The notes under the pieces: generated by a model
Database searches by the model: none
Seen by the model: only the letters and a program-made list of their open reading frames with translations
What the model was told of the DNA's origin: nothing
Position numbers and translations under genes: made by a program
In this document: positions 6,232-8,416 of the stretch, piece after piece
Layout of the letters: the number at the start of each line of letters is the position of its first letter
Numbering within the stretch: position 1 is the stretch's first letter
Assembly: GCF_003334785.1 (NCBI RefSeq)
Contig: NZ_QOWV01000027.1
DNA: 30,887 nucleotides
From: Escherichia coli
Lineage (GTDB): Bacteria > Pseudomonadota > Gammaproteobacteria > Enterobacterales > Enterobacteriaceae
Direction: 5' to 3' (one strand)

Positions 6232-6657
6232 ATGAAACGGAACACGAAAATTGCCCTGGTAATGATGGCGCTTTCAGCAATGGCGATGGGATCGACATCT
6301 GCATTTGCTCACGGCGGACACGGTATGTGGCAGCAAAATGCCGCGCCTTTGACCAGCGAACAACAGACAGCGTGGCAGAAAATCCATAATGACTTTTACG
6401 CTCAAAGCAGCGCACTGCAACAGCAACTGGTGACGAAGCGTTATGAATACAATGCCCTGTTAGCCGCGAACCCACCGGATAGCAGCAAAATTAACGCGGT
6501 CGCCAAAGAGATGGAGAATTTGCGTCAGTCGTTAGATGAGTTACGGGTGAAACGAGATATCGCGATGGCTGAAGCGGGTATTCCGCGCGGAGCCGGAATG
6601 GGCATGGGCTACGGCGGCTGCGGTGGTGGCGGTCATATGGGTATGGGCCACTGGTAA
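6232..6657 (+). CDS. zraP: Zinc-resistance-associated periplasmic protein (CpxP/Spy family chaperone)
   Basis: 141 aa starting MKRNTKIALVMMALSAMAMGSTSAFA (signal peptide); Gly/Met/His-rich C-terminal tail GAGMGMGYGGCGGGGHMGMGHW. The six-frame track ORF 6091..6657 is an in-frame upstream extension lacking RBS and overlapping the ZraR boxes. Confidence 0.93.
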   Translation: MKRNTKIALVMMALSAMAMGSTSAFAHGGHGMWQQNAAPLTSEQQTAWQKIHNDFYAQSSALQQQLVTKRYEYNALLAANPPDSSKINAVAKEMENLRQSLDELRVKRDIAMAEAGIPRGAGMGMGYGGCGGGGHMGMGHW

Positions 6658-6658
6658 A

Positions 6659-7360
6659 TCAGAACGTTTTCTCGTTGGGTTGCCAGCGACAGAAATCAGA
6701 GTTTGCCACTAACAGTAATTGCGAACCTTCGGGCGCTTCCAGCCATGCCACGCTGACATCAACAGAAGAGCGGCTCTGGCGGCGCTCGATATGCGCTATC
6801 GCCTGCGAATCTAAATCAGGTTTAATGGTTTGCCCTTCGCAGGTGGTCACGGTCTGTTCCATCGCATGCCAGCGCCCCTGGCGCAGCACGACTCTCCCCT
6901 GACGTAAGGCATCGCTAATCTGGCGGATCTGATCAGCACGATAACGGTATAAATCGATTTGGTCGTTAGAAAGCTGCTGCTTTTCCCCATCGGATTCACG
7001 TTGCATAAAGCTCAGATCACCGCGATCGTCAAAACGCGCGCGAATATTCACCGGCGGTTTGCTGTAAACATTGATATTGATGAGCGTGAGGTTATCGCCC
7101 TGCCAGCGATACTCTCGCGTCGTGGTATCGCCACTGCGCCACGGGCTAAACACGGCAAGCAGATGCACATTATCGCCGCTGTCTTTTCGCCAGATGCGTA
7201 CCGCGCCCTGGTCTTCAGCAAATCCACTGGCGGTAAAGGGAGGAAGTGAAGAGTTATGACTACAGGCAGTGAGAAGCAGAGCGCCAGCCAGCATCAATGA
7301 TCGACGCCAGAAAGACAAAAGGGGTGAAACCACCCCTTCGTTAAAACTGTTCACTGCCAC
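6659..7360 (-). CDS. yjaH: DUF1481-family putative lipoprotein
   Basis: ORF with RR n-region, hydrophobic core LMLAGALLL and lipobox LLTAC; track start at 7360 is GTG; alternative in-frame starts at 7354 (GTG) and 7294 (ATG). Start uncertain because the hupA terminator hairpin lies within the 5' end of this ORF. Confidence 0.8.
   Translation of the reverse strand: MAVNSFNEGVVSPLLSFWRRSLMLAGALLLTACSHNSSLPPFTASGFAEDQGAVRIWRKDSGDNVHLLAVFSPWRSGDTTTREYRWQGDNLTLININVYSKPPVNIRARFDDRGDLSFMQRESDGEKQQLSNDQIDLYRYRADQIRQISDALRQGRVVLRQGRWHAMEQTVTTCEGQTIKPDLDSQAIAHIERRQSRSSVDVSVAWLEAPEGSQLLLVANSDFCRWQPNEKTF
7311..7336 (-). terminator. Rho-independent terminator downstream of hupA
   Basis: Minus-strand RNA: GGGGUG-GUUU-CACCCC followed by UUUUGUCUUU, about 30 nt after the hupA stop. 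Confidence 0.7.
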
Positions 7361-7366
7361 GCAATC

Positions 7367-7639
7367 TTACTTAACTGCGTCTTTCAGTGCCTTGCCAGAA
7401 ACAAATGCCGGTACGTTAGCTGCGGCAATTTTGATTTCTTTACCGGTCTGCGGGTTGCGGCCAGTACGCTCAGCGCGGTGGTTCACTTTGAAGGTACCGA
7501 AACCAACCAGTTGTACAGCATCGCCTTCTTTCAGAGACTCAGTAATTGCAGCCAGAGTGGACTCCAGAGCAGCTTTAGCCTGGGTTTTGGACAGTTCTGC
7601 TTTCTCTGCAATTACATCAATCAGTTGAGTCTTGTTCAT
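7367..7639 (-). CDS. hupA: DNA-binding protein HU-alpha
   Basis: 90 aa [71 protein letters not shown]; AAGGA SD upstream. Confidence 0.98.
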
Positions 7640-7740
7640 AAGTTATCCTTACAATGTGTTTATCGCTTGCTAAGCATCGAGTGCGACGGAAATGCCAGAA
7701 TAGCACTCTCCTGCATACACGCACCGATAGCCACTTTTTT

Positions 7741-7773
7741 TCGCCCCCCAAATGTAGACCAGACGGGGGGCGA
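7741..7773. other. GC-rich stem-loop (9-bp stem TCGCCCCCC / GGGGGGCGA, 15-nt loop) in the yjaG-hupA spacer
   Basis: Seen directly; flanked by T7 on the plus strand upstream, so on the minus (transcribed) strand the hairpin is followed by A7 rather than U-run: not a canonical intrinsic terminator. Confidence 0.4.
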
Positions 7774-7825
7774 AAGGGAAGACTCCAGGTACGACAAATC
7801 AGGCGTTAAATCACGTTTTCTGGTC

Positions 7826-8416
7826 TTATTGCTGAAAAATTATACCAACATTGCTCTCACCCGCCTCACGCAGGTCTGCCCTAAGGCCTTTTATCAGCTC
7901 GATATCGCGTTCTTCGCACTCAGCTAAAAGTCGGAATATTTCCCACTGAATGTCCCATTCTTGCTCTACAGCTGGGTTTTCTTTAAGCTCTTCATCGCTC
8001 ATTTCGCGACCAGCCTGAGTCATTTCCAGCATCGCAACGGTCGTGATGGAGGTCTTACTCACTTCCACCGCGTGTTCGAGCGTTTCACCACTCAAACGCG
8101 AATGGACCAGTTCACTTAACGCCACGCAGGCATCGATTGCCGGATAAACGCCGTACAGATCGAAATCGTCGGCTGAAGGAATCGCTTCTTCAAATTTCTC
8201 CAGTTGGCTGTCGAAATTTACTTTTGCGTCTTTAACGGTCAGCGTTTCCCAGATGAGATCGAGAATGCGACGGTAAATTTGCCCATCACCAAAACCGGTT
8301 TGCTGGCAGAACATGGCGTAATTGGGGTACATGCGTTCGCATAAGCAAGCCATGAAAGTGACATGCTGCCAGCTTTCCAGGCGCTCCAGACGCAGATGAA
8401 TTGGGTTTTGTAACAT
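7826..8416 (-). CDS. yjaG: DUF416-family protein
   Basis: 196 aa MLQNPIHLRLERLESWQHVTFMACLCERMYPNYAMFCQQ; length and sequence consistent with E. coli YjaG. Confidence 0.9.
   Translation of the reverse strand: MLQNPIHLRLERLESWQHVTFMACLCERMYPNYAMFCQQTGFGDGQIYRRILDLIWETLTVKDAKVNFDSQLEKFEEAIPSADDFDLYGVYPAIDACVALSELVHSRLSGETLEHAVEVSKTSITTVAMLEMTQAGREMSDEELKENPAVEQEWDIQWEIFRLLAECEERDIELIKGLRADLREAGESNVGIIFQQ

What the first reader, a model, noticed from the sequence alone, without database searches (positions are those of the whole stretch)
7294..7360. hupA intrinsic terminator lies inside the 5' end of the yjaH ORF: start codon and transcription unit of yjaH are ambiguous
The longest yjaH ORF starts at a GTG 6 nt after the hupA stop, but a good terminator hairpin (7311..7336) is within its first 17 codons. 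Either yjaH is expressed by read-through from hupA with the terminator acting as an attenuator, or the true start is the internal ATG at 7294, which would leave an implausibly short signal peptide before the lipobox Cys. The lipoprotein signal (WRRSLMLAGALLLTAC) argues for the upstream start.
Basis: inference. Interest (0 to 1): 0.3.

Follow-up and report, generated by a model that had tools for sequence, protein, structure and literature searches.

The report
hupA terminator inside yjaH coding start
The transcription stop signal of the abundant E. coli nucleoid gene hupA really does sit inside the first 17 codons of the next gene, the lipoprotein gene yjaH, and this overlap is conserved across enteric bacteria, so yjaH can be made only from the hupA transcripts that run through the stop signal; it is a tidy but modest curiosity.

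Summary
On the minus strand, hupA ends at 7367. A 9-bp hairpin (7339-7318) with a U tract (7320-7309) follows 27 nt later. Published Term-seq places a strong, Rho-independent 3' end at about 7315, listed as "internal to yjaH, +39". The yjaH frame opens at GTG 7360; RefSeq annotates the second GTG, 7354.

In 81 Enterobacteriaceae:
- At least one of the two upstream start codons is always present.
- ATG 7294 is present in only 14.
- An overlooked in-frame TTG (7318, in the U tract) is missing in 9, including three Kluyvera species with no other usable start.

Dickeya and Proteus have an ATG upstream of the same terminator. The hairpin shows compensatory changes, and synonymous sites in codons 1-20 are nearly frozen.

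Best reading: yjaH starts at SD-less GTGs between the hupA stop and its terminator. It is expressed only by terminator read-through, probably with ribosomes handed over from hupA. All candidate starts give the same mature lipoprotein.

No evidence was found for a regulated attenuator. No direct TIS or TSS data for yjaH could be retrieved. This is a new example of a known kind, of low to moderate interest.

The parts
7367..7639 (-). hupA (HU-alpha) coding sequence; stop TAA at 7369-7367
   Evidence: ORF list. NCBIfam equivalog NF008023 scores 201 bits against a cut-off of 162. RefSeq annotation.
7340..7366 (-). 27-nt gap between the hupA stop and the terminator hairpin. It holds both candidate yjaH GTG starts and the motif GUGGCAGUGAACAGUUUUAAC, whose synonymous sites are nearly invariant.
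   Evidence: Sequence. Alignment A3. Synonymous-codon entropy is 0.18 bit in codons 1-9 against 1.15 in codons 34-233. No indel occurs between the first start and the hairpin in 81 species, whereas the 5-7 nt before the first start varies in length.
7358..7360 (-). First in-frame start (GTG), 6 nt after the hupA stop; start of the longest ORF (233 aa)
   Evidence: A start codon is present here in 76 of 81 species. It is ATG in L008 and L051, and GTA in Salmonella and Leclercia. No Shine-Dalgarno: duplex -1.4 kcal/mol.
7352..7354 (-). Second in-frame GTG, 12 nt after the hupA stop; the RefSeq/PGAP start (231 aa)
   Evidence: Present in 76 of 81 species, and lost only where the first start is kept. 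No Shine-Dalgarno: duplex -1.5 kcal/mol. Lowest predicted opening cost of the candidates, 13.6 kcal/mol.
7318..7339 (-). hupA intrinsic terminator stem-loop (9 bp, loop GUUU; G-C core 7321-7336). It is translated as yjaH codons 8-15 (E-G-V-V-S-P-L-L).
   Evidence: Scan. Fold gives -13.9 kcal/mol. 99.6% of cells are paired, with C-G<->U-A and G-C<->U-A/U-G compensatory changes. It is the RNAalifold consensus structure.
7309..7320 (-). U tract UUUUGUCUUUCU. The in vivo RNA 3' end is at about 7315 (...CACCCCUUUUGU).
   Evidence: Term-seq 3' end at MG1655 4200605(+), 39 nt into annotated yjaH. Read counts are 102752, 27872 and 14561 in three conditions. Rho score 0.74; intrinsic-terminator score 5.76.
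7316..7318 (-). In-frame TTG (codon 15) inside the U tract. This rival start would give a 19-residue signal peptide, M-SFWRRSLMLAGALLLTAC.
   Evidence: present in 72 of 81 species; it is TCG in the Citrobacter amalonaticus group and in Kluyvera. It sits at the foot of the hairpin and has the highest opening cost, 23.8 kcal/mol. The SD-like AAGGGGUGG (-7.6 kcal/mol) is the 5' arm of the hairpin.
7292..7294 (-).
   Evidence: Present in only 14 of 81 species. No SD: duplex -1.5 kcal/mol. It would leave MLAGALLLTAC with no charged n-region.
7262..7306 (-). Rest of the lipoprotein signal peptide: W-R-R n-region end, hydrophobic core and lipobox L-T-A-C (Cys33 = TGT 7264-7262)
   Evidence: The Cys is invariant in 29 diverse family members. 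Synonymous variation is normal from codon 21 on, at 1.36 bit.
6659..7354 (-). yjaH as annotated (DUF1481 lipoprotein, 231 aa)
   Evidence: RefSeq. Pfam PF07356 matches residues 44-229 with E 1.1e-72. The region is present in 5421 of 5426 complete E. coli genomes.

Best explanation
The hairpin and U tract at 7339-7309 form the Rho-independent terminator of hupA, and it lies inside the real yjaH reading frame.

- **Start codon.** yjaH begins at one of two GTG codons without a Shine-Dalgarno sequence: 7354, the annotated start, and/or 7360. Both sit in the 27-nt gap that separates the hupA stop codon from the hairpin. The terminator is therefore translated as the n-region of a long (31-33 residue) lipoprotein signal peptide, G-x-x-x-P-L-L. 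Signal peptidase II cuts at Cys33, so every candidate start gives the same mature protein. This probably explains why the start position drifts between lineages.
- **Transcription.** The gene has no room for a promoter downstream of the terminator. yjaH is therefore made only from the minority of transcripts that read through it.
- **Role of the terminator.** It acts as a fixed ratio-setter between a very abundant protein (HU-alpha) and a minor lipoprotein, not as a regulated attenuator.
- **Translation initiation (inferred, not shown).** The start codons lack an SD and lie 6-12 nt after the hupA stop. Ribosomes finishing hupA therefore most likely re-initiate there by termination-reinitiation.
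- **Why the start is weak (inferred, not shown).** On the bulk of terminated hupA mRNAs, any initiation at these GTGs would run off the 3' end as a non-stop complex. That would favour keeping the start weak.
For: **Terminator identity**
- Consensus scan and fold.
- Covariation across 81 species.
- Term-seq 3' end at 7315, Rho-independent, intrinsic-terminator score 5.76.

**Upstream start**
- At least one start codon is present at codon -32 or -30 relative to the Cys in 81 of 81 Enterobacteriaceae. Losses are complementary, five each and never both. The first start has twice changed from GTG to ATG.
- Three Kluyvera species (L068, L071, L082) have no ATG, GTG or TTG between the terminator and Cys-4.
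- The start-to-Cys distance is always 32 codons, apart from one 3-nt loop insertion and one 3-nt deletion. The stop-to-start spacer is 5, 6 or 7 nt.
- Dickeya has an ATG 4 nt after the hupA stop and Proteus an ATG 14 nt after it, both with the ORF running through the terminator.
- The very distant locus L093 has a GTG 6 nt after the stop as its only plausible in-frame start.

**Read-through dependence**
- The hupA-terminator-DUF1481 order held in every locus examined whose upstream flank was recovered.
- In L088 and L095 the RBS or ATG follows the U tract within 5-20 nt, leaving no promoter space.

**Dual constraint**
- Synonymous entropy is 0.18-0.44 bit in codons 1-20 against 1.15 bit downstream.

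**Published mechanism precedents**
- Termination is maximal once the stop-to-hairpin distance exceeds 27 nt.
- A terminator 30 bp after a start codon keeps about 90% of its efficiency.
- Initiation on terminated RNA halves expression of the upstream gene (PMC4824070).
- Termination-reinitiation needs very short intergenic distances (PMC10666635).
- The stop-to-hairpin distance is 23-34 nt in all lineages looked at.
Against: - No direct translation-initiation data for yjaH could be retrieved.
- A 31-33 residue Sec/SPII signal peptide with an 18-residue n-region is unusually long. The TTG 7318 form would be canonical.
- Because the first 20 codons are frozen at the nucleotide level, conservation of the GTGs and absence of stops could partly be a by-product of an RNA-level constraint on the hupA 3' UTR. 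The motif GUGAA(A/C)AGUUUUAA persists in Pantoea sp. IMH, where it is not in the yjaH frame.
- The indel argument upstream of the U tract rests on a single 3-nt insertion.
- The GTGs have no SD, and coupling to hupA is inferred only.
- The Term-seq paper's filter implies a TSS 20-200 nt upstream of the 3' end. Some yjaH mRNA may therefore not come from the hupA promoter, and such transcripts would lack hupA translation.
Confidence: 0.65

Rival explanations
1. In E. coli the working start is TTG 7318, inside the U tract. This gives a canonical 19-residue lipoprotein signal peptide (M-SFWRRSLMLAGALLLTAC). The upstream GTG-to-hairpin stretch would then be only the hupA 3' UTR, which happens to be open in frame.
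For: - TTG is present in 72 of 81 Enterobacteriaceae and in Dickeya, Proteus, Morganella, Edwardsiella, L092 and L095.
- Morganella genomes are annotated with this start (219 aa).
- Distant homologues with unambiguous ATG starts have 16-21 residue signal peptides.
- An SD-like AAGGGGUGG lies upstream (-7.6 kcal/mol).
- The nucleotide-level freeze of codons 1-14 could reflect UTR function rather than coding.
Against: - TTG is replaced by TCG in 9 of 81 species. Three Kluyvera species then have no start codon at all that could give a signal peptide, other than the upstream GTGs.
- The codon sits at the 3' foot of a -13.9 kcal/mol hairpin, and its SD-like element is the 5' arm, 12-14 nt away. Its predicted opening cost is the highest of the candidates, 23.8 kcal/mol.
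- L093 has no such TTG.
Confidence: 0.15
2. The true start is ATG 7294. yjaH would have its own transcript beginning just after the terminator, and its protein would have a very short signal peptide.
For: ATG is the strongest start codon, and it is present in all Escherichia loci.
Against: - Present in only 14 of 81 species; elsewhere this codon is ACG, GCG, TGG or GTG.
- No SD: duplex -1.5 kcal/mol.
- It would remove the conserved W-R(R) n-region, leaving 10 residues before the Cys.
- Only 20 nt separate the RNA 3' end from the ATG, so no promoter fits, and none was found.
- The ATG lies inside a small conserved hairpin.
Confidence: 0.03
3. yjaH is driven substantially by its own promoter, either inside the 3' half of hupA or in the stop-hairpin gap, rather than by the hupA promoter. 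The terminator would then act as a 5'-proximal brake on that transcript.
For: - The Term-seq paper kept the yjaH-internal 3' end in its filtered table. Under its stated rule, that requires a Thomason-2015 TSS 20-200 nt upstream, which is window 7515-7335.
- A -10-like TAAGAT overlaps the hupA stop (7369-7364), with a predicted TSS near 7357.
Against: - The TSS was not seen directly, and dRNA-seq lists contain many weak internal TSSs.
- The standard promoter scan finds nothing.
- TAAGAT has only a 3/6 -35 element and is TAAGAC or TAATTC in most genera.
- Any such transcript must still pass the terminator.
Confidence: 0.2
4. The overlap is a regulated attenuator. A ribosome that starts on yjaH close behind RNA polymerase melts the hairpin, so read-through, and with it YjaH, tracks transcription-translation coupling or hupA translation rate.
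For: - Geometry: a ribosome at GTG 7354 reaches the hairpin base at +15.
- Ribosomes near a hairpin can suppress termination (PMC4824070).
Against: - The same paper shows that a terminator within the first 100 bp of an ORF is hardly affected, with only about a 10% change.
- There is no conserved antiterminator.
- The 3' end is strong in all three growth conditions.
- The start is SD-less.
Confidence: 0.08

Closest known systems
Lambda tR2 terminator placed 30 bp after the ninA start codon (construct W48 of Li et al. 2016, NAR, PMC4824070)
   Same: - An intrinsic terminator lies a few tens of nt downstream of an upstream gene's stop codon, inside the first codons of the next ORF.
- Termination stays efficient.
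- Ribosomes that start on terminated RNA have no stop codon.
   Different: - That case is a plasmid construct, whereas this is a native chromosomal pair conserved across Enterobacterales.
- Here the ORF is a full lipoprotein gene.
- Here the start is an SD-less GTG.
Partial intrinsic terminators inside operons that set expression ratios, such as the rplL-rpoB attenuator and rpsU-dnaG-rpoD T1 (recalled from memory, not checked here)
   Same: A constitutive, leaky terminator between a highly expressed proximal gene and a weakly expressed distal gene that has no promoter of its own.
   Different: In those cases the terminator is intergenic. Here it is inside the distal gene's coding sequence and is translated.
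ORF-internal 3' ends catalogued by Term-seq (Adams et al. 2021, eLife, PMC7815308)
   Same: This very 3' end is in their tables as "internal, yjaH, +39", not Rho-dependent, with intrinsic-terminator score 5.76.
   Different: - The paper does not discuss it.
- It is most simply the hupA terminator rather than a premature-termination regulator of yjaH.
Leader-peptide attenuators (trpL, pyrL)
   Same: A terminator hairpin overlaps a translated reading frame just upstream of the regulated gene.
   Different: - No short leader ORF.
- No regulatory codons.
- No alternative antiterminator pairing.
- The translated frame is the structural gene itself.
Gene pairs coupled by termination-reinitiation (Huber et al. 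2019 and 2023; PMC6728339, PMC10666635)
   Same: Co-directional genes, a stop-to-start distance of a few nt (here 6 and 12 nt), and no SD at the downstream start.
   Different: - The classic pairs overlap by 1 or 4 nt and encode subunits of complexes.
- Coupling here is untested.
- A terminator intervenes.

Membership tests
Intrinsic (Rho-independent) terminator | G+C-rich stem-loop immediately followed by a U-rich tract | tested here: met
   9-bp stem with 5 G-C pairs, loop of 4, tail UUUUGUCUUUCU. Hairpin energy -13.9 kcal/mol.
Intrinsic (Rho-independent) terminator | RNA 3' end in vivo within the U tract, a few nt after the stem | tested here: met
   Published Term-seq 3' end at MG1655 4200605, which is window 7315 (...CACCCCUUUUGU), in three growth conditions.
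Intrinsic (Rho-independent) terminator | Independence from Rho | tested here: met
   Published Rho score 0.74, flagged "No"; intrinsic-terminator score 5.76, above the threshold of 3.
Intrinsic (Rho-independent) terminator | Structure conserved through compensatory change | tested here: met
   99.6% of cells paired. Two pairs show both-sided changes in 19 cells, against 3.0 in shuffles. Slid controls give 52-80% paired.
Bacterial lipoprotein (Sec/SPII) signal peptide | Lipobox [LVI][ASTVI][GAS]C with an invariant Cys | tested here: met
   L-T-A-C. The Cys is invariant in 29 diverse DUF1481 proteins and in 81 Enterobacteriaceae.
Bacterial lipoprotein (Sec/SPII) signal peptide | Positively charged n-region followed by a 7-15 residue hydrophobic core | tested here: met
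   W-R-(R/H/Q/G) followed by SLMLAGALLL. The first Arg is nearly invariant. With the GTG starts the n-region is unusually long, at 18-20 residues.
Bacterial lipoprotein (Sec/SPII) signal peptide | Cleavage by signal peptidase II and lipidation | not testable with these tools
   This needs globomycin sensitivity, palmitate labelling or mass spectrometry.
Tat (twin-arginine) signal peptide | Conserved S/T-R-R-x-F-L-K-type twin arginine | tested here: not met
   The second Arg is H, Q, G, S, K, C or M in many genera. Considered because of the long n-region, and rejected.
Regulated transcription attenuator | Conserved alternative (antiterminator) structure or a known sensor element | tested here: not met
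   RNAalifold finds only the terminator, an invariant 3-bp clamp around it, and two small hairpins downstream of it, the first at 7307-7291. No Rfam family matches at E <= 1.
Regulated transcription attenuator | Condition-dependent read-through | not tested
   The 3' end is strong in LB at OD 0.4, LB at OD 2.0 and M63. Read-through fractions were not available.
Translational coupling by termination-reinitiation | Co-directional genes with overlap or a very short stop-to-start distance | tested here: met
   6 and 12 nt in E. coli. 5-7 nt to the first start in 81 species, and 2-14 nt in distant lineages.
Translational coupling by termination-reinitiation | Downstream translation depends on upstream translation | not testable with these tools
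   This needs reporter fusions with hupA translation abolished or its stop codon moved.

The most novel reading that the evidence does not exclude
The overlap is an ancient, selected expression device rather than an annotation accident. Across Enterobacterales the lipoprotein gene has no promoter or Shine-Dalgarno sequence of its own. Its start codon is parked in the ~27-nt "ribosome-clearance" gap that the hupA terminator needs. It is translated only by hupA ribosomes that re-initiate on the few read-through transcripts, which fixes the YjaH:HU ratio. The price is that any initiation on the abundant terminated hupA mRNAs produces non-stop complexes needing tmRNA rescue. That cost would explain why the start is a weak, SD-less GTG. 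The frozen synonymous sites would reflect the triple load on this stretch: hupA 3' UTR and terminator, the yjaH initiation region, and signal-peptide coding.
Probability: 0.3. Interest if true: 0.45.

Novelty: new member of a known kind. Interest (0 to 1): 0.3.

Why it matters
- **Annotation.** Comparative data justify keeping the long yjaH ORF. They also show that a terminator hairpin inside the first codons of a gene need not mean a wrong start call. Gene callers and terminator predictors that forbid such overlaps would err here.
- **Interpreting Term-seq.** An "ORF-internal" 3' end can simply be the upstream gene's terminator. Not every such end is a premature-termination regulator.
- **Biology.** This is a natural, deeply conserved example of one sequence serving as terminator, 3' UTR and signal-peptide coding. 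It could be used to study three things:
  - how leaky terminators set expression ratios;
  - SD-less re-initiation after a very highly translated gene;
  - the cost of non-stop translation on terminated mRNAs.

The stakes are modest. YjaH has no known function and no regulation is evident.

Tried and rejected
1. **ATG 7294 as the start.** Rejected: poorly conserved, no SD, and it destroys the n-region.
2. **TTG 7318 as the universal start.** Rejected as universal: missing in 9 of 81 species and buried in the hairpin. Kept as a rival for E. coli.
3. **GTG 7333 in the hairpin arm.** Present only where the stem carries U-A (E. coli, Pseudocitrobacter), so not a conserved start.
4. **Tat signal peptide**, suggested by the long n-region plus RR. 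Rejected: the second Arg is not conserved.
5. **Known RNA family in the hupA 3' UTR.** None in Rfam.
6. **Antiterminator or alternative fold.** None found.
7. **ProQ binding to the hupA 3' terminator as the cause of the nucleotide freeze.** The literature found concerns only the hupA 5' UTR, so this remains an untested idea.
8. **A "relay uORF" in Erwiniaceae**, running from near the hupA stop through the terminator to an ATGA overlap with yjaH. Seen in L090 and L094, but in different frames and without a consistent start, and absent in L095. Too weak to use.
9. **Direct TIS, TSS or operon data for yjaH.** Nothing was found in the held supplements of Meydan 2019 (bioRxiv version), TRAINSPOTTER, Nakahigashi 2016, SMRT-Cappable-seq, a Rend-seq annotation paper, a Term-seq 3'-UTR paper or Cappable-seq. 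Thomason 2015 is not held.
10. **Opening-energy calculations.** They only weakly discriminate between starts, giving 13.6-23.8 kcal/mol in one arbitrary 211-nt context.
11. **Profile-based locus search with a 29-sequence family alignment.** It failed because no conserved stretch was available, so a closer alignment was used.
Full report
**What is there**

The window is the E. coli nfi-yjaG-hupA-yjaH/zraP region. The query stretch matches all 5426 complete E. coli genomes, 5421 of them over at least 80% of its length. All genes of interest lie on the minus strand.

- hupA runs 7639..7367 and is an HU-alpha equivalog (201 bits against a cut-off of 162).
- Its TAA stop is at 7369-7367.
- The longest downstream ORF starts at GTG 7360, 6 nt after the stop, and encodes 233 aa.
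- RefSeq/PGAP annotates yjaH from the second GTG, 7354, giving 231 aa, a "DUF1481 domain-containing protein".
- Pfam DUF1481 covers residues 44-229.

The minus-strand sequence reads TAA GATTGC GTG GCA GTG AAC AGT TTT AAC GAA GGG GTG GTT TCA CCC CTT TTG TCT TTC TGG CGT CGA TCA TTG ATG ... ACT GCC TGT. The terminator scan reports a 9-bp stem (7339..7318, loop GUUU) followed by TGTCTTTCTG. The hairpin folds at -13.9 kcal/mol and dominates the local fold.

The only corrections are a 3-nt shift in the hairpin coordinates and the fact that the annotated start is the second GTG.

**Is the terminator real?**

A consensus match alone is at chance level here: 1 site found against 1.5 expected. Two independent lines settle the question.

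First, published Term-seq data list a dominant 3' end at MG1655 4200605(+) in LB at OD 0.4, LB at OD 2.0 and M63 (Adams et al. 2021, PMC7815308, supplementary files). It is classed "internal, yjaH, +39". Its Rho score is 0.74 (not Rho-dependent) and its intrinsic-terminator score is 5.76, above the threshold of 3. With hupA at 4200281-4200553 and yjaH starting at 4200566, that position is window 7315. The RNA therefore ends ...CACCCCUUUUGU.

Second, I aligned 80 Enterobacteriaceae species loci plus the window. The nine stem pairs are formed in 99.6% of cells. The two apical pairs switch C-G<->U-A and G-C<->U-A/U-G. Controls in which one strand is slid give 52-80% pairing.

**Which start codon?**

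I listed every in-frame ATG, GTG and TTG between the upstream in-frame stop and the lipobox Cys in the 81 sequences.

| Candidate (codon relative to Cys; window position) | Present in | Notes |
|---|---|---|
| -32 (7360) | 76/81 | ATG in two species; GTA in Salmonella and Leclercia |
| -30 (7354) | 76/81 | Lost only where -32 is kept, so 81/81 have at least one of the two |
| -18 (TTG 7318, in the U tract) | 72/81 | TCG in the Citrobacter amalonaticus group and in Kluyvera |

In Kluyvera georgiana, K. ascorbata and K. sichuanensis the only starts that could yield a signal peptide are the upstream GTGs.

The spacer between the hupA stop and the first start is 5, 6 or 7 nt, so the two genes are not held in a fixed relative frame. 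From the first start to the Cys there are always 32 codons. The exceptions are one 3-nt insertion in the hairpin loop (Yokenella) and one 3-nt deletion (Pseudenterobacter).

More distant relatives agree:
- Dickeya lacustris has an ATG 4 nt after the hupA stop, and Proteus mirabilis an ATG 14 nt after it. In both, the ORF runs through the terminator.
- Edwardsiella has a GTG 7 nt after the stop.
- In L093, only 26% identical to the E. coli protein, a GTG 6 nt after the stop is the only plausible in-frame start.

The translated terminator is visible as a recurring G-x-x-x-P-L-L(F) motif at the N-termini of many family members.

Other lineages have moved the start downstream of the terminator:
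- L088 has its ATG 5 nt after the U tract.
- L095, a Pantoea agglomerans-type locus, has an SD directly after the terminator.
- Pantoea sp. IMH and Erwinia billingiae have the start about 70 nt downstream.

This plasticity makes sense. Every candidate start yields the same mature lipoprotein after cleavage at the invariant Cys.

**Caveat on the comparative argument**

Synonymous-codon entropy is 0.18 bit in codons 1-9 and 0.44 bit in codons 1-20. It is 1.36 bit in codons 21-33 and 1.15 bit in codons 34-233. The first 20 codons are therefore constrained at the nucleotide level. Part of the "conservation of start codons and open frame" could be a by-product of an RNA-level function of the hupA 3' end.

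The motif GUGAA(A/C)AGUUUUAA even persists in Pantoea sp. IMH, where it lies outside the yjaH frame. For this reason I put the upstream GTG start at roughly 75%, not higher, and keep TTG 7318 as a live rival. Arguments against TTG 7318:
- It is absent in nine species.
- It sits at the foot of the hairpin.
- Its only SD-like element is the 5' arm of that hairpin.
- It has the highest predicted opening cost.

**How it most likely works**

*Shown:* hupA transcripts end mainly at 7315. The yjaH frame, its conserved start codons and the terminator overlap. There is no space for a promoter between the terminator and any plausible start. The hupA-terminator-DUF1481 order is conserved from Enterobacteriaceae to very distant relatives.

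*Inferred:*
1. yjaH is expressed from transcripts that read through the terminator.
2. The GTGs have no Shine-Dalgarno sequence (-1.4 and -1.5 kcal/mol, against -5.9 for hupA) and lie 6 and 12 nt after the stop of one of the most heavily translated genes. Initiation is therefore most likely by termination-reinitiation, which is known to require very short distances (PMC10666635).
3. The 27-nt stop-to-hairpin gap matches the distance at which a ribosome parked on the stop codon no longer suppresses an intrinsic terminator (more than 27 nt in PMC4824070). The same gap is 23-34 nt in every lineage examined.
4. That study also shows that a terminator 30 bp after a start codon keeps about 90% of its efficiency. 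It further shows that ribosomes starting on terminated RNA become non-stop complexes that halve upstream gene expression. This predicts selection for a weak yjaH start on the abundant terminated hupA mRNA, consistent with an SD-less GTG.

I found no sign of regulated attenuation. There is no alternative conserved structure and no Rfam match, and the 3' end is strong in all three conditions.

**Transcription unit**

The standard promoter scan finds nothing on either strand in 6500-8000. However, the Term-seq paper states that a 3' end whose first upstream feature is a stop codon was kept in its filtered table only if a Thomason-2015 TSS lies within 200 nt, and more than 20 nt, upstream. The yjaH-internal end was kept. 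This implies a mapped TSS somewhere in window 7515-7335.

I could not see that TSS. The only -10-like hexamers there are weak. One of them, TAAGAT, overlaps the hupA stop and is TAAGAC or TAATTC in most genera. Any such transcript would still have to pass the terminator, but it would not carry hupA translation. This remains the main open point.

**Comparison with what is known**

The closest experimental analogue is the lambda tR2/ninA construct of Li et al. (PMC4824070). Functionally the element resembles intra-operon partial terminators that set expression ratios. It differs from leader-peptide attenuators in lacking a leader ORF and an antiterminator.

The 3' end itself is already in a published table, and the hupA terminator is long known. 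I rate it a new member of a known kind, with interest 0.3.

Noticed in passing
window 7291-7307 (minus strand): A second small hairpin, GCGUCG-AUCAU-UGAUGC, lies directly after the U tract and contains ATG 7294. It is paired in 90.5% of cells across 81 species, against 29-60% in slid controls. It has 27 cells with both-sided changes against 9.8 in shuffles. One covarying pair links a synonymous site of Arg19 to the first base of codon 23. Function unknown.
   Followed up: partly
window 7347-7349 with 7308-7310 (minus strand): RNAalifold adds an invariant 3-bp CAG/CUG clamp around the terminator. It never varies, so it neither supports nor refutes pairing. It may contribute to the frozen synonymous sites in AAC-AGT.
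   Followed up: partly
window 7335-7515 (minus strand; MG1655 4200405-4200585): The filtering rule of Adams et al. 2021 implies that a Thomason-2015 TSS lies in this interval, inside the 3' half of hupA or in the stop-hairpin gap. The only -10-like hexamers are TAAGAT (7369-7364, which lies just upstream of this interval and overlaps the hupA stop, with its predicted TSS near 7357 inside it) and CAAAAT (7433).
   Followed up: partly
window 7667-7669 and 7531 (minus strand): Term-seq also lists 3' ends in the hupA 5' UTR (MG1655 4200251/4200253, about 30 nt before the ATG) and inside hupA (4200389). The hupA 5' UTR is a known ProQ/RaiZ target.
   Followed up: no
window 6657-6659: yjaH (minus strand, ending at 6659) and zraP (plus strand, ending at 6657) converge with only 1 nt between their stop codons and no terminator between them. 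ExcludonFinder (PMC12288877) lists yjaH-zraP among pairs with overlapping convergent transcription.
   Followed up: no
L090 1394-1504; L094 376-504; L095 432-503: In Erwiniaceae the yjaH ATG lies downstream of the terminator. In Pantoea sp. IMH and Erwinia billingiae, one frame stays open from near the hupA stop, through the terminator, to a TGA that overlaps the yjaH ATG (ATGA). The two differ in frame and start codon. In the P. agglomerans-type locus the yjaH frame itself stays open through the terminator, and an SD (AAGGGG) follows the U tract directly.
   Followed up: partly
window 7741-7773: A G+C-rich inverted repeat, TCGCCCCCC...GGGGGGCGA with a 15-nt loop, lies between yjaG and hupA. 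A T run precedes it on the plus strand, which is an A run after it on the minus strand. It is therefore not a canonical terminator in either direction.
   Followed up: no
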